Part shown: positions 9,992 through 64,000 of the stretch, piece by piece
How the letters are laid out: every line of letters begins with the position of its first letter
Numbering within the stretch: the first letter of the stretch is position 1
Virus record (IMG/VR): IMGVR_UViG_3300047160_025247
Length of the DNA: 64,000 nucleotides
From: a virus
Reading direction: 5' to 3' (one strand)
The notes under the pieces: model-generated
The model's input: only the letters and a program-made list of their open reading frames with translations
Told to the model about the DNA's origin: nothing
The model's database searches: none
Translations under genes and position numbers: made by a program

Positions 9992-10566
9992 ACAAGATCG
10001 TCACCGATCTCGACGGTTGGAAGACCACCAAGTCGTGGGTCGACGCCTACACGGCGACGATCGAGGCCTCGTTCGACGCCGCCATGAACCCCGAGATCCG
10101 CAGCGAGGTCAACGAGGCGCTGAAGGCCGCGCAGGCGCAGGCGCTCGCGACCAAGAGCGAGCAGGACATCAACGTTGCGCGGCAGCAGGCCCACATCGCT
10201 CGCCGCGTGGGCGGTTTCAGCGCCGAGCAGTACGACATCATCAAGAAGATCTGGAAGGTGACCGCCGAGGCGATCATCGCCACGTCGTGGAAGCTCACCG
10301 AGGAGATCTTCTACGCCGAGGAGCCGACCAAGGAGAAGCTGCGCTTCTGGCAGGGCGACTCGCCGCTGAAGAATTTCATCCTGCTGCCGCGCGATCAGTC
10401 GTCGCTGTTCATCAAGTTCCTGCGCTTCGTGCAGTCACGCGCCGAGCGCTTCGACCCCGTCGCGCATACCAAGCAGATGCTGGAGTCGCAGGGCATCAAC
10501 GAGCACAACTTCGACGAGTACGCCGACAAGCTCGCCATCACCAACCCCTGGAAGCCGATCCCCTAA
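9988..10566 (+). CDS. hypothetical protein
   Basis: GTGA overlap, GGAGG RBS, codon bias. Confidence 0.65.
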   Translation: MNKIVTDLDGWKTTKSWVDAYTATIEASFDAAMNPEIRSEVNEALKAAQAQALATKSEQDINVARQQAHIARRVGGFSAEQYDIIKKIWKVTAEAIIATSWKLTEEIFYAEEPTKEKLRFWQGDSPLKNFILLPRDQSSLFIKFLRFVQSRAERFDPVAHTKQMLESQGINEHNFDEYADKLAITNPWKPIP

Positions 10567-11561
10567 TGCCACGCAAGGATCTCGTCTCCCGTGCGACGAT
10601 CGAGCAAGCCCAGCTGGCTGATCAGCTGCGCTCGGCGACGACGCACGTCTGGGGATACATCCGCGTTTCGACCGAGAAGCAGGAGGACGGACAGACCTAC
10701 GACGTGCAGCGCGCCGGGATCGAGGCCTACTGCAAGGAGAACAAGCTCGGCGCACCCAAGTTCGTGCACGAGGCCGCGTCGGCGAAGAATCCGGCGATCC
10801 CGATCGCGATGCCGACGTCGCTGACCGCGCCCGCGGGCGCCCGTCCCGACCTCGCCAACTCGGCGCAGATCTCGCCGCGCCCGCTGCTGCTCATGCTCGT
10901 CGGGCATCTCTTCGACACGCCGGGATCGCACCTGATCGTCTGGAAGCTCGACCGTCTCGCGCGCATCTCCTATGAGCAGGAACTGATCATCAACCTGCTG
11001 CGTCGGAAGCAGGTGCAGATCCATTCGACGATGGTCGGTGAGCAGGAAGTGCTCCGCGGTGTCGACGACAGCGACCCGGCGCGCGTGCTGTTCCGCAACG
11101 TGCTCGGCGCGGTGGCGCAGTACGAGCGCCGCATGATCGAGATCCGCATGAAGACCGGCCTGCGGATGAAGGCGTCGAAGGGCGCGTGGGCCGGCGGCGC
11201 GATCCCGTTCGGCTACACGGTGAAGAGCGGCGACCTCGTGATCAGCCCGGCCGATGTCGAGACTGTTCTGCGCGTTTTCTTCCTGCGCGACCGATGCGGC
11301 GAGACCTACGAGCGCATCGCCGAAATCCTCGCGAAGCGCTTCGCCACGAAGGGCTGGCATAAGGTGCGCGTCTCGCGCATCCTTCACAACCGCCAGCTCT
11401 ACCAGGGTATCTACGTGGATCCATTCAACGTCGCGCACGATCGTCCAGACCTGCGCATCCTGCCAACGGAAGACGGCTGGGACCAGTGGATGGAGAAGAA
11501 CAATCTCAACCCATCAACACTCGAAGGATTCGCCTATGTCGACCCGCCAGCAGAAGCGTAA
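10566..11561 (+). CDS. serine recombinase (resolvase catalytic domain plus recombinase domain)
   Basis: WGYIRVSTEKQ, LIVWKLDRLAR, AQYERRMIEIR...G...GG.IPFGY; TAATG overlap. Confidence 0.9.
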   Translation: MPRKDLVSRATIEQAQLADQLRSATTHVWGYIRVSTEKQEDGQTYDVQRAGIEAYCKENKLGAPKFVHEAASAKNPAIPIAMPTSLTAPAGARPDLANSAQISPRPLLLMLVGHLFDTPGSHLIVWKLDRLARISYEQELIINLLRRKQVQIHSTMVGEQEVLRGVDDSDPARVLFRNVLGAVAQYERRMIEIRMKTGLRMKASKGAWAGGAIPFGYTVKSGDLVISPADVETVLRVFFLRDRCGETYERIAEILAKRFATKGWHKVRVSRILHNRQLYQGIYVDPFNVAHDRPDLRILPTEDGWDQWMEKNNLNPSTLEGFAYVDPPAEA

Positions 11562-16691: not shown

Positions 16692-17567
16692 ATGGCACAC
16701 GGGGTCGGGAAGCGGTTGACTGAAAGCGAGCGCACCCGTGTGGTCGCGGCCTACCGGCGCGGTGAGTCGTCAGGCACGTTGGCAAAGCAGTTCGGTGTCT
16801 CCGATGTTGCGATCCGGAAGACGTTGCAGCGTGCCGGCATCGAGCGCCGCGGAGCCTCAGCCTGCCATCGGATCTACACGTTGAACGAGGCGGCGTTCGA
16901 TGAGATCACGCCTGAGTCAGCGTACTGGGCGGGGTTCCTGCTCGCTGATGGCGCAATCTGCGACACCGATAAAGGTTCGGCTCCGAAGATCGAGTTAGCG
17001 TTGCAGGCGCGCGATCGAGCGCATGTTGAGCAGTTCAAGACTTTCCTTAGCGCTGGTCACCCGCTTCGTGAGCGGCGCTACAGGACAGAACACAGCTTTC
17101 GGTTTGAGGTGAGATCGAGTCGTCTCGTCGCAGCCCTAGCTAAACTAGGAGTGGTACCGAGAAAATCTTTCACCGCTGACGTTCCCGAAGCCCTTCGTTA
17201 CGATGCAAGTTTTTGGCGCGGCGTCATTGACGGCGATGGTCATCTCGGAGACCAAAGGAAGTTTCCTGTGCTGCGTCTTGTAGGATCTCATGAGACCGTG
17301 CGACACTTTCGTCTATTCTGCCGTTCTTATGCCAGGCTGGAGCGTATCCATACAGCACCAACAAGTTCTATCTTCTACGCTCAGCTTCTTGGCGCGGACG
17401 CCTTGGCTGTTATATCTACTTTGTACGTAGGAGCACCACGAACAGCTGTCCTTTCGCGCAAGTATGCAGAGGCTATGCGTATGATACGAACCTATTCTGG
17501 AATAGTGTTTCGTGTTCTCCCGCCGCGCCGCCGCCCTCCGGTATCGCCTCGGTCTTATAAGCCGTAG
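16692..17567 (+). CDS. LAGLIDADG homing endonuclease with N-terminal HTH
   Basis: AYWAGFLLADGAI and FWRGVIDGDGHL motifs; HTH-like SSGTLAKQFGVSDVAIRKTL. The start could be 16659. Confidence 0.85.
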   Translation: MAHGVGKRLTESERTRVVAAYRRGESSGTLAKQFGVSDVAIRKTLQRAGIERRGASACHRIYTLNEAAFDEITPESAYWAGFLLADGAICDTDKGSAPKIELALQARDRAHVEQFKTFLSAGHPLRERRYRTEHSFRFEVRSSRLVAALAKLGVVPRKSFTADVPEALRYDASFWRGVIDGDGHLGDQRKFPVLRLVGSHETVRHFRLFCRSYARLERIHTAPTSSIFYAQLLGADALAVISTLYVGAPRTAVLSRKYAEAMRMIRTYSGIVFRVLPPRRRPPVSPRSYKP

Positions 17568-17614
17568 AAAGCGTAACTGGTTCCATGTGGGTTCGACTCC
17601 CATCCGGAGGACCA
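17535..17614 (+). tRNA. non-canonical tRNA-like gene, anticodon UAU (Ile/AUA), lacking a normal D-arm
   Basis: Acceptor stem CCTCCGG/CCGGAGG + A-CCA; T-arm GTGGG-TTCGACT-CCCAT; anticodon loop CT-TAT-AA. Confidence 0.7.
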
Positions 17615-58976: not shown

Positions 58977-60986
58977 TTAGCCTCCCGACTGCGCGGCGGT
59001 GCCGTTGGCCGGCGGATCCGCGGGCTTCTCGCCCTCCGGCTTGGCCTCGGCGGCCGGCGGCTGCGCCTTCGGCGTGCGCGGACGCTTGGGACGCGGAGTC
59101 GGCTTGTCGGCCGCGGCCGGCGGCGTGGTGCCCGCAGGCGGAGTCGTCGCCGCCGGATGGGCCGCCATCGGCTGCTGGGTCTGCTGCTCGCTCGTCTCGT
59201 CGATGACGCGCGCCTGCGGAGGCGCCGCACGCTGGCCGGGCGCCGGCTGGTTCGCCTTCACGAACTGCGCGGTCTCGATGATCGCGTTGTCCATGCGGTC
59301 GCGCGTGATCGTGCCGCTGATCATCGCGCTCAGGTCGGCGAGCGCCGACATGAGGAACTCGACGTTCTTCTCCTGCTCGACCCATTGCAGCAGCACCGGG
59401 TTCACGAGCACGATCGGCGAGCCCAGCTCCATGATCTTGTCGCGGTTGTTCGCGGCCACCGCCTCCAGCATCGCCGGCGGCGCCCACTGCTGGACCCACT
59501 TCAGGAGGTTGAAGCGCTGGCCCGGCTCGATCTCGCCGACGCTCAGACGGCGGATACTGTCAAGCGAGATTCGGATGCGCTCGGCGTCAGGGTAGTCGGC
59601 CGGGTTGCGCGAGCGGCGAGGAGCCTGCTGCGCCTGGGCCTGCTCGGCGGTCGCCGGGACAGCGGCCGGCGGAGGAACCTTCCCACGCCGCGGTCGCGGC
59701 TGCTGCTCGGCGGCCGGCTGCTCGGTGACCACCTGGGCCTGAGGAGGCTGCTGCTGAGGCGCCGATTGCTGCAGCTCGGGGCCCGGGGCCTGCTGACCCT
59801 GCTGCTGCATGCCGGCGAGGAGTGGACCCGCGATCTTCGCGATCTGCGCGAGCGTGCCTTCCTCCTTGTCGCCACCACCGCTGGTCTTCAGCTCCATCAG
59901 CTCCTTCATCGTGCCGAGGGCGCTCTTCATCGTCAGGCCGAGCACCTCGCTCTGGATGCTGGCGGAAGCCTTGACCTGCTCCTGCTGCTGCGCGAGATTG
60001 CTCTGCGCCATCGACTGCATCAGCTTCGCCATCTCGGCCATCATCGTCGCGTCGAAGCTCTTCTCGGGCTTCTCGTTCATCTTGGCCTTGAACATCTCGA
60101 TCAGCAGCTGGTCGGTCGGGCTCGGCCCGTGATCCTTCTTGCCGAAGATCTTCTCGATCAGCGGCACGAGCGCGGGCAGCGCGCTGACGATCAGCGTGCG
60201 GAACTCCGAGCGGCGCTTCTCGGCGCGCTCTTCGCGCTCGGCGGCGTCGCGGCGGGAGCGCTCCTCGGCTTCGCGCTGCTGCTGCGACAGCTGCTGCATC
60301 ATCTGCATGGTGGCGCTCTGCTGGCTTGCGATCAGCGAGGCGATCTCGGTGCCGCGGCGAGCTTCGTCCTGGCGCTCGGCGCGCAGCGCGCTGGTGAGCG
60401 ATGTGGTGTCGAGCGCAGGCGGCGGAGGGGGCACCTGGAAGGATGGAGCCTGCTGGAAGCCGAGATCCAGCTCGGGCTCGCCTTCACCATTCAGATCGGC
60501 GGCCGGCTGATCGTCGACGCTGCCCTCTTCGCCGATCTCGATGTCCCAGGCGGTGTCCACCATCGGGCGGTTCGCCTTGTCGTGGAAGCGACCGATGAAC
60601 TTGCCGCCGTTGGGGAACTTCTCCAGCAGCTTCGACGCCACGTAGTCGTCGGTCGACGTCCCGTCGGCGGTCGCATCCTCCAGATCCTTCACCACGATCT
60701 GCAGCACCGGCTTCGAGCCGAAGGCGATCTTGCCATCCTTCGCACGGTAGACGACGACGCGACTGTCGAGCGCCTTCGGGGCCACACTCTCGATCCGCTT
60801 CCGCTCCGCGCTGCGCTCAATCCGCTGCTGCTGCACCTCGGGATCCGCCGCCGGTCGGCCGACCGGGTTCACCGCCTGCTGCCCACCGCCGGGGGACATC
60901 ACCGGCGCGGAGCGGGCGAAGCCGGGGGACATCACCGGCGACGCCGGCGGAGCGATGGGAGGAAGAGCGGGGGAGGCGCCGTCCAT
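58977..60986 (-). CDS. 669-aa protein: Pro-rich ends, globular N-domain, long Gln/Met-rich coiled coil, helical C-domain
   Basis: Strong GC3 bias on the minus strand; GAGG RBS. Confidence 0.75.
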   Translation of the reverse strand: MDGASPALPPIAPPASPVMSPGFARSAPVMSPGGGQQAVNPVGRPAADPEVQQQRIERSAERKRIESVAPKALDSRVVVYRAKDGKIAFGSKPVLQIVVKDLEDATADGTSTDDYVASKLLEKFPNGGKFIGRFHDKANRPMVDTAWDIEIGEEGSVDDQPAADLNGEGEPELDLGFQQAPSFQVPPPPPALDTTSLTSALRAERQDEARRGTEIASLIASQQSATMQMMQQLSQQQREAEERSRRDAAEREERAEKRRSEFRTLIVSALPALVPLIEKIFGKKDHGPSPTDQLLIEMFKAKMNEKPEKSFDATMMAEMAKLMQSMAQSNLAQQQEQVKASASIQSEVLGLTMKSALGTMKELMELKTSGGGDKEEGTLAQIAKIAGPLLAGMQQQGQQAPGPELQQSAPQQQPPQAQVVTEQPAAEQQPRPRRGKVPPPAAVPATAEQAQAQQAPRRSRNPADYPDAERIRISLDSIRRLSVGEIEPGQRFNLLKWVQQWAPPAMLEAVAANNRDKIMELGSPIVLVNPVLLQWVEQEKNVEFLMSALADLSAMISGTITRDRMDNAIIETAQFVKANQPAPGQRAAPPQARVIDETSEQQTQQPMAAHPAATTPPAGTTPPAAADKPTPRPKRPRTPKAQPPAAEAKPEGEKPADPPANGTAAQSGG

Positions 60987-61055
60987 GATGTGTAACCTCG
61001 GGTGGTTTGAGCTTGACTCCCAAGGTTACGTTACCCGTTTCAGAAAGGCAAACCC

Positions 61056-61073
61056 GTTCCGTTTTTTCGGACA
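61056..61073. promoter_or_regulatory. TGTCCG-N6-CGGACA-type site (2 mismatches)
   Basis: GTTCCG-TTTTTT-CGGACA, 69 nt upstream of the 60986 ATG. Confidence 0.55.
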
Positions 61074-61146
61074 AAAGTTACGCCGCCCTGGAAATAAAAT
61101 GCCGCGCGCTGCGATCACTCAGCGCGCGGCAACGTGCCGACGGAAA

Positions 61147-61521
61147 TGGTGGAGATGCCGGGAGTTGAACCCGGGTCCATGGCCTCTCAGATCGTGCGCT
61201 CTCCTAGAAACAGCACCGCGGTTCGGCGCGGGCGCCTACTCAGCCAGGTACCTCCTGCCTGTGCTCGGGGTGGATTGTCTTCAGCCTGCTTAGGATCACC
61301 AGTCCGCTGCAGGCCTAGCCTTCATGTTCTCCCGCGTCGAAGGCGGTCATAGCGAGAGATTGGAACGCTGCTCATGCAGCTGCGGGTTAGGCAGCGGCGC
61401 GAACGGCGTCGAACTCGACGTGGTCGTCGTTTCGGTTTTTGCTCGCTTGATGTCGCGGTCCACGAGCGCCGCGTTCTAGCTCACACGACCGTCGCGGTCA
61501 TGTCGAAGCCTGTTCATCCCC
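61147..61521 (-). ncRNA. ssrA: tmRNA
   Basis: 5' GGGGATGAACAGGCTTCGAC; 3' GACCCGGGTTCAACTCCCGGCATCTCCACCA; G3-U70 wobble; internal tag frame ...NDDHVEFDAVRAAA* (61434-61387). Confidence 0.92.
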
Positions 61522-61938
61522 ATATATGGTTGTCAACGTCGCTGAGATCCTAGGCGCCGCTTCCTGGCATGCAAGGCGGACGCTCCGCGAGAAGTTCCGT
61601 CGCCCCAGCTCGCGCCGAAGCTCGATCGGCTTGTCGCGCTCGTTCTGCGACTGCGTGCCAAGCAGGATGTTGTCCCACGCGTTGTTGAAGCCGTTTCCGT
61701 CGGCGTGACGAACGTGCAGAGAGCGCCAGAGCGCGCGACTGCCGTACTTCAGGTAGGCGACGAAACGGTGCGCCTTCACCTTCACGTTGCCAACCGAGAA
61801 GGAGAGATAAATCATCCGCGTGTGCTGCTTCTCGATCAGCTTGAGCTTGATGCCGGTTGGACCGTAGACGTTGCCGAGCTGATCGACGGTGTAGCCAACC
61901 CGCGCAGCGTAGCGGATCGCGCTGTTAGCTTTGGTCAC
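61498..61938 (-). CDS. HNH homing endonuclease
   Basis: KAHRFVA...HVRHADGNGFNNAWDNILLGTQSQN. Confidence 0.9.
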   Translation of the reverse strand: MTKANSAIRYAARVGYTVDQLGNVYGPTGIKLKLIEKQHTRMIYLSFSVGNVKVKAHRFVAYLKYGSRALWRSLHVRHADGNGFNNAWDNILLGTQSQNERDKPIELRRELGRRNFSRSVRLACQEAAPRISATLTTIYGDEQAST

Positions 61939-62315
61939 GGAGGTTGCCCTACCGTGAGCATGAGCCCCGTTCTGTAGATGAAGAACGGCATACCGATAAA
62001 CGTCGGCTGCCCGATGATCGGGATCTCGGGCCCGAAGAGGCAGTCAAAGGTATCGCCCACCAGCTCAACCCTGCAGCTGCGAGCGACGACTCCAACCGAG
62101 GTGCACTTACCGGTTCCAGATCCGATGTGGTACTGGTTCGGCGCGCCGGCCGGTGTCAGCACACAGTGGATGCGACAGAGCTGCTTGAGCGTGTCGCGAT
62201 CGAGGAGGACGAGGACGGATTCCTTCGGAATCACCGGCTGTAGCTCGGTTCGCGTCTTCGTAAGAACCGCCGGAGCGAAATCCGTTCCGGCGTCTGGCTT
62301 GGTGTCGGTGCTCAT
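61935..62315 (-). CDS. hypothetical protein
   Basis: ATGA coupling to both neighbours. Confidence 0.6.
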   Translation of the reverse strand: MSTDTKPDAGTDFAPAVLTKTRTELQPVIPKESVLVLLDRDTLKQLCRIHCVLTPAGAPNQYHIGSGTGKCTSVGVVARSCRVELVGDTFDCLFGPEIPIIGQPTFIGMPFFIYRTGLMLTVGQPP

Positions 62316-64000
62316 ACCAGCGCCGGTTCCTTGATCGCGTTCGTATCCTCCGTGAGAAATTTCACAAAGTAATCCTTTGTCTCTGACTGCAGAACGTCCG
62401 CGAGGCTCGACTTGTCGAGCACCGAGTCGTAGACCTTACGGTCGTAACCACAGTCGGTGAGCAGGTAGGTATAGTTGCACGGGTACTTCTGGCCGATGCG
62501 ATGGATGCGGTCCTGCGACTGACGCCAGTCGATGTAGCGGTACGAGAGGCCCATGTAGATGCAATCATAGCACGGAACCTCGCAGTCCTTCGCCAGCAGC
62601 GTCACGCCTTCCGACATCGACAACTGACGAACGTAGACGGTGACCGTGGGATCGTCGTTCCAGCGATCGACCGCGGCGTCGCGGTCGCGTTGCGAGGTGA
62701 TGGTGCCGTCGACGCGGACGTACTTGATGCCGTGCTCGCGCAGCATCTCGCAGATACGCTTGATCTCGTACTGGAAGTAGGCCCAGACGATCACCTTGCG
62801 CCCGCGCAGCGTATCGGTGAGCATCTCCATGAGCGCCTGCGTCTTCGCGTCGCTGAAGTGCTTGCCTTCCTTCGAGTCGTCGAGCACGAAGCCTTGGCAA
62901 AGCTGCATCAGCTTCATGATCTTGGCTTGCGCCTGCTCCAGAGTCACCGTTGAATCCTGGATGTAGAGGATCGCTTCCTTCTTCAGCGTGTTGTAGTACC
63001 GGCGCTGCTCGTCGGTCATGTCGAGGAAGATCGGCGTGTGCGTCTTCTTCGGTAGATACGGCAGCACCTCCTCCTTCTTGATGAAGTAGGTGGACTCCGC
63101 CATCGCGGCCGAGATCGCTTCGAGCGCGCCGGCGCGAGGTGTGTTCTTCGTGAAGCCGCCGTGGCCGACCTCCTCGTCGAAGTACTTCTCCAGGAACGCC
63201 TGCTTCGACGCGCCAAGCGTGCGACCGCCGTCCATGATGAGCATTGGATAGAAGACGCTCTCCAGGTTGTTCGCCATCGGCGTACCAGAGAGACCGAGTT
63301 TCTTCTGTGCCCGCTGCGCCAACGCGAGCGTGTACATCGTCTGGTTGGTGTGGTTCGCGCAGCGGTGGCACTCGTCGACGATCAGGCCGGCATACTTGTT
63401 GTGCTCGACGTACTTCAGGCTTTCGTAGTTGGTGATGTGGTAGTGCGCCGGCGTTGCCGAGAGCCGCGCTTTCCGCTCCGCGCTCCCGGTGATGATGAGC
63501 CCCGTGGCGTTCTGCCACTTCGCCAGCTCCTGCTGCCAGGTCTTCAGCATCGTCTTTGGAGCGATGACGAGCACGCCACCTTCGACGCCAGGACGTCCGT
63601 CAACATAGACCGGCGACATCGGTGGGATCAGACCGTTGCGGTACCAACCGCCGGATGCGTCCGCCGCACCGCGGGTCTTCCCAGTGCCCGGATCCCACGC
63701 CATGAGCAGACCGCTGACGCGCTGCGACCAGTGATAGAGAATACCCTGGTAGCGCGTCGGCGGGCAGTCCTGGCCGGTGTAGGGATCGCGCTGGATGCAC
63801 GCGTAGGGATCGATCGGGATCGCGTGGTTTCGGATGATGTGCTCGACCGCGACGCGCGTGTCGTGCTCGACCTTGGCCTGCTTCAGATGCTGCTCGGCGA
63901 ACTCGCGAAGACCAGGCTGCCACTGAATCGGTTCGCTGGTATCTTTCGCGACTTTCTCCAGCGCGATGATCGCCGCTGGCGTGAGCGGGAAGTCCCACTC
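62312..64000 (-). CDS. SNF2-family (SF2) helicase/ATPase (5' truncated by window)
   Basis: DPGTGKT, LIVDECH, LSGTP, QSQDRIHRIGQ; the frame is open to the window edge. Confidence 0.9.
   Translation of the reverse strand, partial: EWDFPLTPAAIIALEKVAKDTSEPIQWQPGLREFAEQHLKQAKVEHDTRVAVEHIIRNHAIPIDPYACIQRDPYTGQDCPPTRYQGILYHWSQRVSGLLMAWDPGTGKTRGAADASGGWYRNGLIPPMSPVYVDGRPGVEGGVLVIAPKTMLKTWQQELAKWQNATGLIITGSAERKARLSATPAHYHITNYESLKYVEHNKYAGLIVDECHRCANHTNQTMYTLALAQRAQKKLGLSGTPMANNLESVFYPMLIMDGGRTLGASKQAFLEKYFDEEVGHGGFTKNTPRAGALEAISAAMAESTYFIKKEEVLPYLPKKTHTPIFLDMTDEQRRYYNTLKKEAILYIQDSTVTLEQAQAKIMKLMQLCQGFVLDDSKEGKHFSDAKTQALMEMLTDTLRGRKVIVWAYFQYEIKRICEMLREHGIKYVRVDGTITSQRDRDAAVDRWNDDPTVTVYVRQLSMSEGVTLLAKDCEVPCYDCIYMGLSYRYIDWRQSQDRIHRIGQKYPCNYTYLLTDCGYDRKVYDSVLDKSSLADVLQSETKDYFVKFLTEDTNAIKEPALV

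What the first reader, a model, noticed from the sequence alone, without database searches (positions are those of the whole stretch)
61147..61521. Phage tmRNA whose resume codon appears one nucleotide short
Seen: ...GCAAAAACC-GA-AAC-GAC-GAC-CAC...GCC-GCT-GCC-TAA. The degron-like frame (NDDHVEFDAVRAAA*) needs resumption at CGA or AAC. Resumption at the G expected from the usual consensus (GAA) gives ETTTTSSSTPFAPLPNPQLHEQRSNLSL*, which has no C-terminal AA degron. Known: tags normally resume at a GCN codon and end in AA for ClpXP. Inference: an unusual resume register, a 1-nt deletion (error or decay), or a tmRNA that rescues ribosomes without marking proteins for degradation.
Basis: partly seen in the sequence, partly recalled or inferred. 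Interest (0 to 1): 0.6.

Follow-up and report, generated by a model that had tools for sequence, protein, structure and literature searches.

The report
Viral tmRNA with aspartate-first tag

Summary
The tmRNA is real: Rfam RF00023 scores 81 bits (E 8e-30) on the minus strand at 61521..61147. It has every structural hallmark and its own terminator. ARAGORN misses it.

The "one nucleotide short" reading assumes that translation resumes at G89 (GAA). The best candidate is GAC at RNA 94-96 (window 61428..61426). It starts with G and is in frame with the UAA in the helix-5 loop. It lies 12 nt after pseudoknot 1 and follows the box GAAAC, which puts an A at -4. Rickettsia and Spiroplasma tmRNAs have the same box.

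The predicted tag is (A)DDHVEFDAVRAAA.

An antisense ORF from a related virus (P0131) aligns in one frame on both sides of this spot, with a single 3-nt gap. That relative has the box RAAYU, then GCU or GUU, then a run compatible with D-D-H-V-E-F. So the window lacks one whole codon, not one base.

At least three other relatives keep an HNH gene that reads into a tmRNA 5' end, so the gene is maintained. More distant relatives lack it.

Non-alanine resume codons are already documented, and this scan has noted valine- and leucine-first phage tmRNAs on other DNA. This is a new member of a known kind, of modest interest.

The parts
61147..61521 (-). tmRNA gene (375 nt, CCA encoded)
   Evidence: Rfam RF00023, 81 bits, E 8e-30, full model. 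ARAGORN finds nothing real even at lowered thresholds.
61515..61521 (-). Acceptor stem 5' strand GGGGAUG (includes G3 of the G3:U pair)
   Evidence: 7/7 pairs with CAUCUCC at 61157..61163, with G3:U as the third pair.
61147..61174 (-). T arm (CCGGG / UUCAACU / CCCGG), acceptor 3' strand, discriminator A, CCA
   Evidence: 5/5 T-stem pairs and ACCA at the end. Posterior probability is high in the Infernal alignment.
61441..61473 (-). Pseudoknot 1 (stems CGCGG/CCGCG and GCUCGU/GCGAGC); its 3' end is RNA C81
   Evidence: All 11 pairs are standard. Aligned to the model's PK1.
61429..61440 (-). 12-nt single-stranded spacer AAAAACCGAAAC; its last five bases GAAAC (61433..61429) form the upstream box, with A90 at -4
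   Evidence: Direct reading. Rules come from PMC2481249 and PMC8363625. The same pentamer precedes the resume codon in Rickettsia (3 rows) and Spiroplasma kunkelii in the curated alignment.
61426..61428 (-). Most likely resume codon GAC (Asp), RNA 94-96
   Evidence: Infernal aligns it to the model's GCa. It is the only candidate that is G-initial, in frame with the H5-loop stop, and 10-17 nt from PK1. The relative inferred from P0131 has its G-initial first codon right after the homologous box.
61387..61428 (-). Tag reading frame GAC..GCC UAA, encoding DDHVEFDAVRAAA plus stop
   Evidence: The stop lies in the helix-5 loop.
61376..61398 (-). Helix 5 (7 of 8 pairs) with loop CUAACCC holding the UAA stop (61389..61387)
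   Evidence: Fold -10.5 kcal/mol, z -2.47. Pairs checked. Aligned to the model's H5.
61090..61131 (-). Intrinsic terminator: 12-bp stem (10 G-C) followed by UUUUAUUU, 15 nt after the CCA end
   Evidence: z -2.5.
61498..61938 (-). HNH endonuclease gene; its last 8 codons (..YGDEQAST*) are the first 24 nt of the tmRNA
   Evidence: Pfam PF13392, E 9.5e-7. Overlap read. Homologues end in YGAEPAST.. or YGGKQAST...
61935..62315 (-). 126-aa ORF of unknown function between the helicase and HNH genes
   Evidence: no Pfam family.
62312..64000 (-). SNF2-family helicase gene, cut by the window end; conserved in the virus group
   Evidence: Pfam PF00176 and PF00271. Over 100 homologues on contigs of about 90-110 kb.
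58977..60986 (-). 669-aa conserved viral gene. In relatives it directly follows the helicase, so 60987-62311 is an insertion
   Evidence: tblastn synteny.

Best explanation
This is a functional, virus-encoded one-piece tmRNA. It lies in a lineage-specific insertion (126-aa ORF, HNH gene, tmRNA, terminator) between two conserved viral genes.

Proposed working:
- It is probably transcribed with or from within the upstream genes, cut at its 5' end by RNase P, and ended by its own intrinsic terminator (inferred).
- Host alanyl-tRNA synthetase charges it through the G3:U pair (inferred from the pair).
- It uses host SmpB. No SmpB was found in this window, which earlier notes put at about 60% of the virus genome, or in three relatives.
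- On a stalled ribosome, SmpB stacks on A90 of the box GAAAC and places the next codon, GAC (RNA 94-96, window 61428..61426), in the A site.
- Translation then adds Ala-DDHVEFDAVRAAA and stops at the UAA in the helix-5 loop. This gives an Ala-Ala-COOH degron.

Compared with a related virus, whose tag seems to start GCU or GUU and then continue D-D-H-V-E-F, this copy lacks exactly one codon. The frame is intact.
For: Shown:
- Rfam hit, 81 bits, E 8e-30.
- Perfect acceptor stem with G3:U, T arm, ACCA, PK1 and H5 with UAA in its loop.
- Terminator.
- Infernal aligns the model's resume codon to GAC94 (posterior about 0.5).

Context of GAC94: -5 G, -4 A, -3 A, -2 A, -1 C, 12-nt spacer.
- In E. coli, A86 (-4) is the frame ruler. 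A 12-nt spacer (A84ins) and U85G are fully active, and the -1 triplet AAC gives 80% survival (PMC2481249).
- SmpB Tyr55 stacks on the base at -4 (PMC8363625).
- Curated tmRDB alignment (PMC1168896, supplementary file 3, about 260 rows read): -4 is A wherever a box is aligned. 'gaaac|gca' occurs in Rickettsia (3 rows) and Spiroplasma kunkelii. Asp resume codons occur in S. epidermidis, M. genitalium and M. pneumoniae. Spacers outside Mollicutes, Aquifex and plastids are 10-17 nt.
- ARAGORN calls in fetched genomes include 'UAAAC|GAC' (L203) and six other Asp-first tags.

Comparative:
- P0131 is an antisense ORF on a 23,982-bp contig, the same length as the contig of helicase P0004 (79% identical). 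It aligns at 56% identity over 54 aa across H5, tag, spacer, PK1 and the 5' end, in one frame, with one 1-aa gap between RNA 91 and 95.
- Back-inference from P0131 gives box [G/A]AA[C/U]U, first codon GCU or GUU, then GNC, [G/U]RU and CNC, with a stop possible at the aligned position.
- The HNH homologues P0122, P0123 and P0128/P0129 have C-termini that read into tmRNA 5' ends. P0128 is on the 103,582-bp contig that also holds helicase P0003, 80% identical.
Against: - No nucleotide sequence of a related tmRNA could be fetched. The relative's sequence is inferred from an antisense protein, so second codon positions and the stop are only 'compatible', not read.
- -5 is a purine (G). Most tmRNAs have U or C there, and in E. 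coli the A84U/U85G double mutant promotes some -1 frameshifting (PMC8363625).
- Infernal's posterior at the resume columns is only about 0.5.
- A position matrix built from ARAGORN calls does not favour GAC94 (-2.0 bits against 0.8 for GAA89; both fall below every natural site). That matrix is circular, because ARAGORN demands the consensus.
- Two other sites have upstream contexts that occur naturally: 'AAAAAC' as in M. capricolum, and 'AACC' as in M. genitalium.
- G-AAACGACGAC does resemble the common GCAAACGACGA with one base missing.
- Expression, charging and tagging are all untested.
Confidence: 0.68

Rival explanations
1. Translation resumes at CGA (Arg, RNA 88-90, window 61434..61432) after the first AAAC (A84-C87). 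The tag is (A)RNDDHVEFDAVRAAA, in the same degron frame and two residues longer.
For: - In frame with the H5-loop UAA.
- Upstream hexamer AAAAAC is identical to the whole spacer of Mycoplasma capricolum, 'aaaaac|gca'.
- A at -4, purine at -3, C at -1; the -1 triplet AAC is active in E. coli.
- tmRDB reads Arg resume codons in two uncultured clones, FS1 and LEM2 ('auagu|cgc aac gac gaa'), which are the same kind of one-base-short case.
- It would keep the familiar N-D-D start.
Against: - The codon starts with C. Apart from those two PCR clones and one Ser clone, every row read in the curated alignment starts with G.
- A 6-nt spacer is seen only in Mollicutes.
- A at -5 sits inside a run of five A's, so there is no defined ruler base. 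U85A shifts the frame in E. coli.
- In the relative inferred from P0131, the homologous triplet is [A/U]RA. That is a stop codon if its Ser codon is AGY, the single-base change from the window's GGT.
- Infernal does not choose this alignment.
Confidence: 0.12
2. The gene really is one base short: a recent deletion in an ancestral GCA-AAC-GAC, or an assembly error. Translation resumes at GAA (RNA 89-91) and makes ETTTTSSS...NLSL, ending at UGA 173-175. The RNA would then rescue ribosomes without a degron, or it is decaying.
For: - G-AAACGACGAC matches the Rfam consensus GCaAACgAc with one deletion, and Infernal's posterior for its own alignment is only about 0.5.
- GAA89 has A at -4, A at -3 and C at -1. 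Its -1 triplet ACC is 100% active in E. coli. 'AACC|GA.' occurs in M. genitalium.
- It has the highest, though still sub-natural, score in the ARAGORN-derived matrix.
Against: - The antisense ORF of a relative aligns in one frame on both sides of the site with a 3-nt gap, so the two genes differ by a whole codon there.
- A deletion inside the codon would leave the upstream context unchanged. That context has a 7-nt spacer and A at -5 inside an A run, which is itself atypical for an ancestral site.
- The resulting frame runs through H5 into PK2 and lacks any tag-like end.
- The rest of the gene is flawless.
- Relatives retain the tmRNA across about 33% HNH divergence, which argues for selection.
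- The neighbouring genes are long, uninterrupted ORFs, which gives no sign of frequent indel errors.
Confidence: 0.08
3. Frame choice is loose. With a purine at -5 and two in-frame AAAC boxes 6 nt apart, resumption is split between CGA88, GAC94 and perhaps the -1 position C93. Alternatively, the RNA works mainly as a ribosome releaser or decoy for the virus, and tag identity matters little.
For: - Two AAAC boxes at RNA 84-87 and 90-93.
- A purine at -5 promotes -1 shifts in E. coli.
- The purine at -5 seems conserved in the relative, which has R there.
- No viral SmpB was found.
Against: - Rickettsia and Spiroplasma use GAAAC naturally.
- Single U85G is fully active in E. coli.
- The tag frame and the stop position appear conserved in the relative.
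Confidence: 0.1

Closest known systems
Standard one-piece tmRNA (SsrA), Rfam RF00023
   Same: Acceptor stem with G3:U, T arm, encoded CCA, PK1, single-stranded box with A at -4, short tag ORF ending in Ala-Ala, stop in the helix-5 loop, further pseudoknot region.
   Different: The resume codon is GAC (Asp) rather than GCN. -5 is G rather than U or C. ARAGORN does not detect it. It is encoded by a virus, and an HNH gene overlaps its 5' end.
Phage-encoded tmRNAs (huge phages, Al-Shayeb et al. 2020, PMC7162821; also jumbo-phage locus L164 fetched here)
   Same: A complete tmRNA carried by a virus of bacteria; presumed to support or manipulate ribosome rescue during infection.
   Different: The host virus is a roughly 100-kb uncultured soil virus that earlier notes describe as tailless with a jelly-roll capsid. 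No tRNA array or SmpB lies beside it. Surveys that relied on ARAGORN would have missed it.
tmRNAs with an Asp resume codon: Staphylococcus epidermidis ('uaacu|gac'), Mycoplasma genitalium and M. pneumoniae ('uaacc|gac')
   Same: GAC as the first tag codon after a box with A at -4 (PMC1168896).
   Different: Those have U at -5. The tag sequences are unrelated.
Rickettsia and Spiroplasma kunkelii tmRNAs (box 'gaaac|gca')
   Same: Identical upstream pentamer GAAAC, with G at -5.
   Different: They resume at GCA (Ala). Rickettsia tmRNA is two-piece.
Uncultured clones LEM2 and FS1 in tmRDB, read with an Arg resume codon
   Same: The same puzzle: relative to their neighbours, the region around the resume codon is one base short, and curators moved the start to CGC to keep the tag frame.
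   Different: Those are PCR clones of enterobacterial-type tmRNA with an otherwise canonical UAGUC box. Here a G-initial in-frame codon with its own box is available, so no shift is needed.

Membership tests
tmRNA (RF00023) | Covariance-model score above the curated threshold over the full model | tested here: met
   81 bits against 47, E 8e-30, model 1-374.
tmRNA (RF00023) | tRNA-Ala-like domain: 7-bp acceptor stem with G3:U70, T arm, discriminator A, CCA | tested here: met
   All pairs are standard, G:U is the third pair, T loop is UUCAACU, ACCA at the end.
tmRNA (RF00023) | Pseudoknot 1 upstream of the tag template | tested here: met
   Two stems of 5 and 6 standard pairs at RNA 49-81, aligned to the model's PK1.
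tmRNA (RF00023) | Upstream box with A at -4, purine at -3, pyrimidine at -1, pyrimidine at -5, before a G-initial resume codon | tested here: inconclusive
   GAAAC|GAC meets -4, -3, -1 and +1. -5 is G, which is rare but occurs naturally in Rickettsia and Spiroplasma. ARAGORN's consensus is not met.
tmRNA (RF00023) | Short tag ORF ending in a hydrophobic/Ala-Ala C-terminus, with its stop in the helix-5 loop | tested here: met
   ..AVRAAA then UAA in loop CUAACCC of a 7/8-pair helix.
tmRNA (RF00023) | Pseudoknots 2-4 closing the ring | tested here: inconclusive
   The Infernal alignment covers these regions, but with deletions and several non-standard pairs in PK2 and PK3 and posterior 0.2-0.6. 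Not analysed further.
tmRNA (RF00023) | Works with SmpB | not testable with these tools
   No SmpB in the window's six frames or in three related virus records, with positive controls ringing. A host SmpB is presumed.
Phage/virus-encoded tmRNA | The gene lies inside a viral genome, not in host DNA flanking a prophage | tested here: met
   It sits between the SNF2 helicase and the 669-aa gene, which are adjacent in related ~100-kb records. Two of those records have direct terminal repeats in IMG/VR.
Phage/virus-encoded tmRNA | Conserved among related viruses | tested here: met
   Indirect. HNH C-termini of P0122, P0123 and P0128/P0129 read into tmRNA 5' ends. Antisense ORF P0131 covers a homologous tmRNA. 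The tmRNA is absent from relatives with helicase identity of 65% or less.

The most novel reading that the evidence does not exclude
This virus lineage has dropped the alanine codon and keeps a purine at -5. Its tmRNA would then write an acidic, aspartate-first tag that differs from the host's, possibly from two alternative in-frame starts. That could let the virus divert rescued proteins to a fate of its own rather than simply boosting host ribosome rescue.
Probability: 0.1. Interest if true: 0.6.

Novelty: new member of a known kind. Interest (0 to 1): 0.3.

Why it matters
The apparent anomaly dissolves. A tmRNA need not start its tag at GCN, and the frame here is set by an ordinary A-at-minus-4 box.

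What remains of interest:
- A family of tmRNA genes sits in a poorly known group of ~100-kb soil viruses.
- An HNH endonuclease gene overlaps the tmRNA's 5' end in each case examined.
- ARAGORN, the standard detector, does not see this tmRNA. Surveys of viral translation genes that rely on ARAGORN probably undercount such genes.
- It is a natural case of codon loss at the resume position, which could be used to test the SmpB 'ruler' model outside E. coli.

Tried and rejected
- ARAGORN on the window and on a 900-nt excerpt at thresholds down to 70%: only a spurious call.
- BLAST of the tmRNA and of 12 kb around it against GenBank phages: no match.
- IMG/VR pattern scans. The 5' 20-mer found none. 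The 3' 26-mer found two unrelated phage tmRNAs (L164, L165). A degenerate tag pattern found none.
- The search for related loci in IMG/VR with the 669-aa protein, the helicase or the HNH alignment: no close relatives beyond L081-L083.
- The one genome scan used the 3' TLD 23-mer. It returned 120 mostly CPR or gammaproteobacterial tmRNAs that share only the tRNA-like ends.
- Rfam and whole-record searches of relatives with helicase identity of 65% or less: no tmRNA.
- BLAST of the internal 321 nt against samples of four phyla, about 1,300 genomes in the phyla of a Gemmatimonadaceae, an Opitutaceae, a Microthrix and a Bradyrhizobiaceae genome: only short chance matches. The donor lineage remains unknown, and Planctomycetota and Myxococcota could not be reached.
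- Protein search with a first antisense ORF (61297-61479): nothing.
- Position matrix from ARAGORN calls: uninformative and circular.
- Spacer length as a strict criterion: weakened after I found 6-8-nt spacers in Mollicutes and Aquifex.
- Earlier-findings look-ups by sequence and by relatives: nothing relevant.

Full report
**What is there**

Rfam's tmRNA model (RF00023) matches the minus strand from 61521 to 61147 over its full length. The score is 81 bits against a gathering score of 47, with E 8e-30.

I number the RNA from its 5' end, so RNA position i is window position 61521-(i-1). The hallmarks are all present:
- a 7-bp acceptor stem, GGGGAUG/CAUCUCC, whose third pair is G:U
- a T arm, CCGGG-UUCAACU-CCCGG
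- discriminator A and an encoded CCA
- pseudoknot 1, with two stems of 5 and 6 standard pairs (RNA 49-81)
- helix 5 (RNA 124-146) with the stop codon UAA (133-135) in its loop; the hairpin folds better than shuffles (z -2.5)

A strong intrinsic terminator follows 15 nt after the CCA. It has a 12-bp stem with 10 G-C pairs, followed by UUUUAUUU.

ARAGORN does not find the gene, even at much lowered thresholds.

The quoted bases and both translations are correct. The frame that ends at UAA reads ..NDDHVEFDAVRAAA*. The frame that starts at GAA (RNA 89) reads ETTTTSSS...NLSL*.

**Where it sits**

No whole genome is held for the window. Earlier notes of this scan describe it as about 60% of an uncultured soil virus of roughly 106 kb.

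I confirmed that the neighbouring SNF2 helicase has more than a hundred homologues on contigs of about 90-110 kb. Two related IMG/VR records have direct terminal repeats.

On the minus strand the order is: helicase, a 126-aa ORF, an HNH endonuclease gene (Pfam PF13392), the tmRNA, the terminator, then a conserved 669-aa gene. In relatives L002, L003 and L004 the 669-aa homologue follows the helicase directly. The segment 60987-62311 is therefore an insertion, and the tmRNA is inside the virus rather than in host flanking DNA.

Relatives with helicase identity of 65% or less have no tmRNA, either nearby or in their whole records.

The last eight codons of the HNH gene (..YGDEQAST, stop) are the first 24 nt of the tmRNA.

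**Which codon resumes translation**

After PK1 ends at C81, the RNA reads AAAAACCGAAAC GAC GAC CAC... Four codons are in frame with the UAA: CGA88, AAC91, GAC94 and GAC97.

The published rules are these:
- In E. coli the 11 nt between PK1 and the tag hold the determinants.
- A86, at -4, is the most conserved base and acts as a ruler.
- Purines are favoured at -3 and C or U at -1.
- U85G and a one-base-longer spacer are fully active, while A86C and A86U are dead.
- The -1 triplets AAC and ACC are active; CGA is dead (PMC2481249).
- Cryo-EM shows SmpB Tyr55 stacking on A86 and the four bases before the resume codon. A pyrimidine at -5 guards against -1 slips (PMC8363625).

Applied here:

| Candidate | -4 | -1 triplet | Spacer after PK1 | Frame with UAA | Comment |
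|---|---|---|---|---|---|
| AAC91 | C | CGA | 9 nt | in | both features are lethal in E. coli |
| GAC97 | C | GAC | 15 nt | in | C at -4 is lethal |
| GAC94 | A | AAC | 12 nt | in | -5 G, -3 A, -1 C; G-initial |
| CGA88 | A | AAC | 6 nt | in | A at -4 lies inside a run of five A's; C-initial |
| GAA89 | A | ACC | 7 nt | out | A at -4 lies inside a run of five A's; G-initial |

Only GAC94 is at once G-initial, in frame with the helix-5 stop, and at a usual distance from PK1. Infernal's alignment puts the model's resume codon on GAC94, though with a posterior of only about 0.5.

GAC94 also opens a small hairpin, CGACG-ACCA-CGUCG. This resembles the U88-A100 hairpin that covers the E. coli resume codon. 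It is a weak point.

**Natural precedent**

I read about 260 rows of the curated tmRDB alignment (Burks et al. 2005, PMC1168896, supplementary file 3).
- A at -4 is present wherever a box is aligned.
- -5 is U in most rows and C in some. It is G in Rickettsia (3 rows) and Spiroplasma kunkelii, whose box 'gaaac' is identical to the one here. It is A in Aquifex and M. capricolum.
- The box 'aaac' at -4 to -1 is common (Bordetella, Methylococcus, Campylobacter).
- According to the paper, the resume codon encodes Gly in 30 sequences, Asp in three, Arg in two uncultured clones, Ser in one and Glu in one. The rows also show GAC in M. genitalium and M. pneumoniae and GUA in H. pylori.
- Spacers are mostly 10-17 nt. 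They fall to 6-8 nt in Mollicutes and Aquifex, so spacer length counts against CGA88 and GAA89 only as a tendency.
They are one base short next to the resume codon, and the curators read them from CGC.

Among tmRNAs I fetched, ARAGORN calls seven Asp-first tags, one of them with 'UAAAC|GAC'. A position matrix built from those calls did not discriminate between the candidates. It is also circular, because ARAGORN requires the consensus.

**Evidence from relatives**

Two indirect routes worked.

First, the HNH homologues at 66-67% identity. P0122 and P0123 end ..TTVYGAEPAST(E/G)I, and P0128/P0129 end ..TTVYGGKQASTGFRNIE. These endings are translations of tmRNA 5' ends of the form GGGGCNGARCCNGCNUCNAC.. 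and GGGGGNAARCARGCNUCNAC... P0128 lies on the 103,582-bp contig that also holds helicase P0003, which is 80% identical. So at least three more relatives keep the HNH-tmRNA junction, with different acceptor stems. This is why my TLD patterns missed them.

Second, an exhaustive HMMER search with the ORF antisense to RNA 1-166 found one protein, P0131. It lies on a 23,982-bp contig, the same length as the contig of helicase P0004, which is 79% identical. The two antisense ORFs align at 56% identity over 54 residues, from helix 5 to the 5' end, in a single frame. There is one 1-residue gap between RNA 91 and 95.

I turned P0131 back into constraints on the sense strand. The result is:
- spacer ..AAAAAC(U), then box [G/A]AA[C/U]U
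- first codon GCU or GUU
- then GNC, [G/U]RU, CNC, and so on, compatible with D, D or G, H, V, E, F
- the last two sense codons before the aligned stop position are compatible with Ala-Ala (GCU or GUU, then GNC)
- a stop (UAA or UGA) is possible at the position aligned with the window's UAA

Three conclusions follow.
- The two genes differ here by three bases, not one. That argues against a one-base deletion or an assembly error.
- The A at -4 and the G-initial codon right after the box are conserved. That supports GAC94.
- The window lacks the relative's first (Ala or Val) codon, so its tag begins with what is the relative's second codon.

The triplet homologous to CGA88 is [A/U]RA in the relative. 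It is a stop codon if the relative's Ser codon is AGY. This counts against the CGA reading but cannot be settled.

**How it probably works**

Shown: the gene's structure, its terminator, its viral location and its conservation among close relatives.

Inferred:
- transcription with or within the upstream genes, and RNase P processing
- charging with alanine through G3:U
- use of host SmpB. None was found in the window's six frames, using two bacterial SmpB proteins as queries. None was found in three related virus records while the controls rang.
- resumption at GAC94
- addition of A-DDHVEFDAVRAAA, and release at UAA

The Ala-Ala-COOH end fits the usual protease degron; this last point rests on my own knowledge of ClpXP recognition.

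Why the virus carries the gene is unknown. Extra rescue capacity during infection is the simplest idea. Phage tmRNAs are already known from huge phages (PMC7162821), and that survey used ARAGORN, which would miss this one.

**Rivals and odds**

| Reading | Odds |
|---|---|
| GAC94 start | about 0.68 |
| CGA88 start (same frame, tag two residues longer) | about 0.12 |
| Real one-base loss or error, with GAA89 start | about 0.08 |
| Loose or mixed frame choice, or a role where the tag does not matter | about 0.10 |

The degron frame as a whole is therefore about 0.8.

**Limits**

- The relative's tmRNA is inferred from an antisense protein, so second codon positions and its stop are not read.
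- The donor lineage of the tmRNA was not found. Samples of four phyla gave only chance matches, and other phyla could not be reached.
- G190, listed, is unpublished. No claim here rests on it.

**Verdict**

This is a real and probably functional viral tmRNA with an uncommon but documented kind of resume codon. The 'one nucleotide short' reading is not supported. It is a new member of a known kind, of modest interest. This scan has already noted phage tmRNAs with valine and leucine resume codons on other DNA.

Noticed in passing
window 61498-61521 (HNH stop region / tmRNA 5' end): The HNH endonuclease gene ends 24 nt inside the tmRNA. The same read-through ending (..YG-x-x-x-AST..) is kept in homologues P0122, P0123 and P0128/P0129, although their acceptor-stem sequences differ. 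The HNH gene and the tmRNA may travel as one unit, or the nuclease may target tmRNA-less alleles.
   Followed up: partly
window 60987-62311; L001:4011-5344; L007:7383-9181: The junction between the SNF2 helicase and the 669-aa gene is a variable insertion site. It is empty in L002, L003 and L004. L001 has a 1.3-kb insert. L007 has a distant HNH homologue plus about 0.9 kb without a tmRNA. The window has the 126-aa ORF, HNH and tmRNA.
   Followed up: partly
loci L166-L285 (genome contigs): ARAGORN made 98 tmRNA calls in total across about 120 bacterial loci, each of which holds an exact tmRNA-type 3' end. Many of the loci without a call are Peribacteria, Roizmanbacteria and gammaproteobacterial MAGs. 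Its resume-consensus requirement may cause systematic misses.
   Followed up: no
L164:929-1344 and L164:90-7206: A 182-kb IMG/VR phage contig carries a 416-nt tmRNA (109 bits) with a very long tag region. It lies inside an array of at least 17 tRNA genes.
   Followed up: no
L165:4369-4654: A 26-kb IMG/VR contig carries a circularly permuted tmRNA (RF04321, 66 bits) next to two tRNA genes. It has the same acceptor and T-arm sequence as the window's tmRNA.
   Followed up: no
window 17535-17611: A tRNA-like gene barely above the Rfam threshold (29.8 against 29 bits), with a 4-nt stretch where the D arm should be and a long insert after the anticodon stem. ARAGORN does not call it.
   Followed up: no
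P0131 (202 aa, 23,982-bp Logan contig): This 'protein' in the public collection is a spurious ORF called antisense to a tmRNA gene and its upstream region. Such ORFs can serve as a back door to non-coding RNA sequences when the DNA itself cannot be fetched.
   Followed up: yes
window 10017-11561: A 514-aa ORF matches the PHROGs families for integrase and DNA invertase (serine-recombinase type, E 3.7e-34). This suggests the virus may integrate or invert a segment.
   Followed up: no
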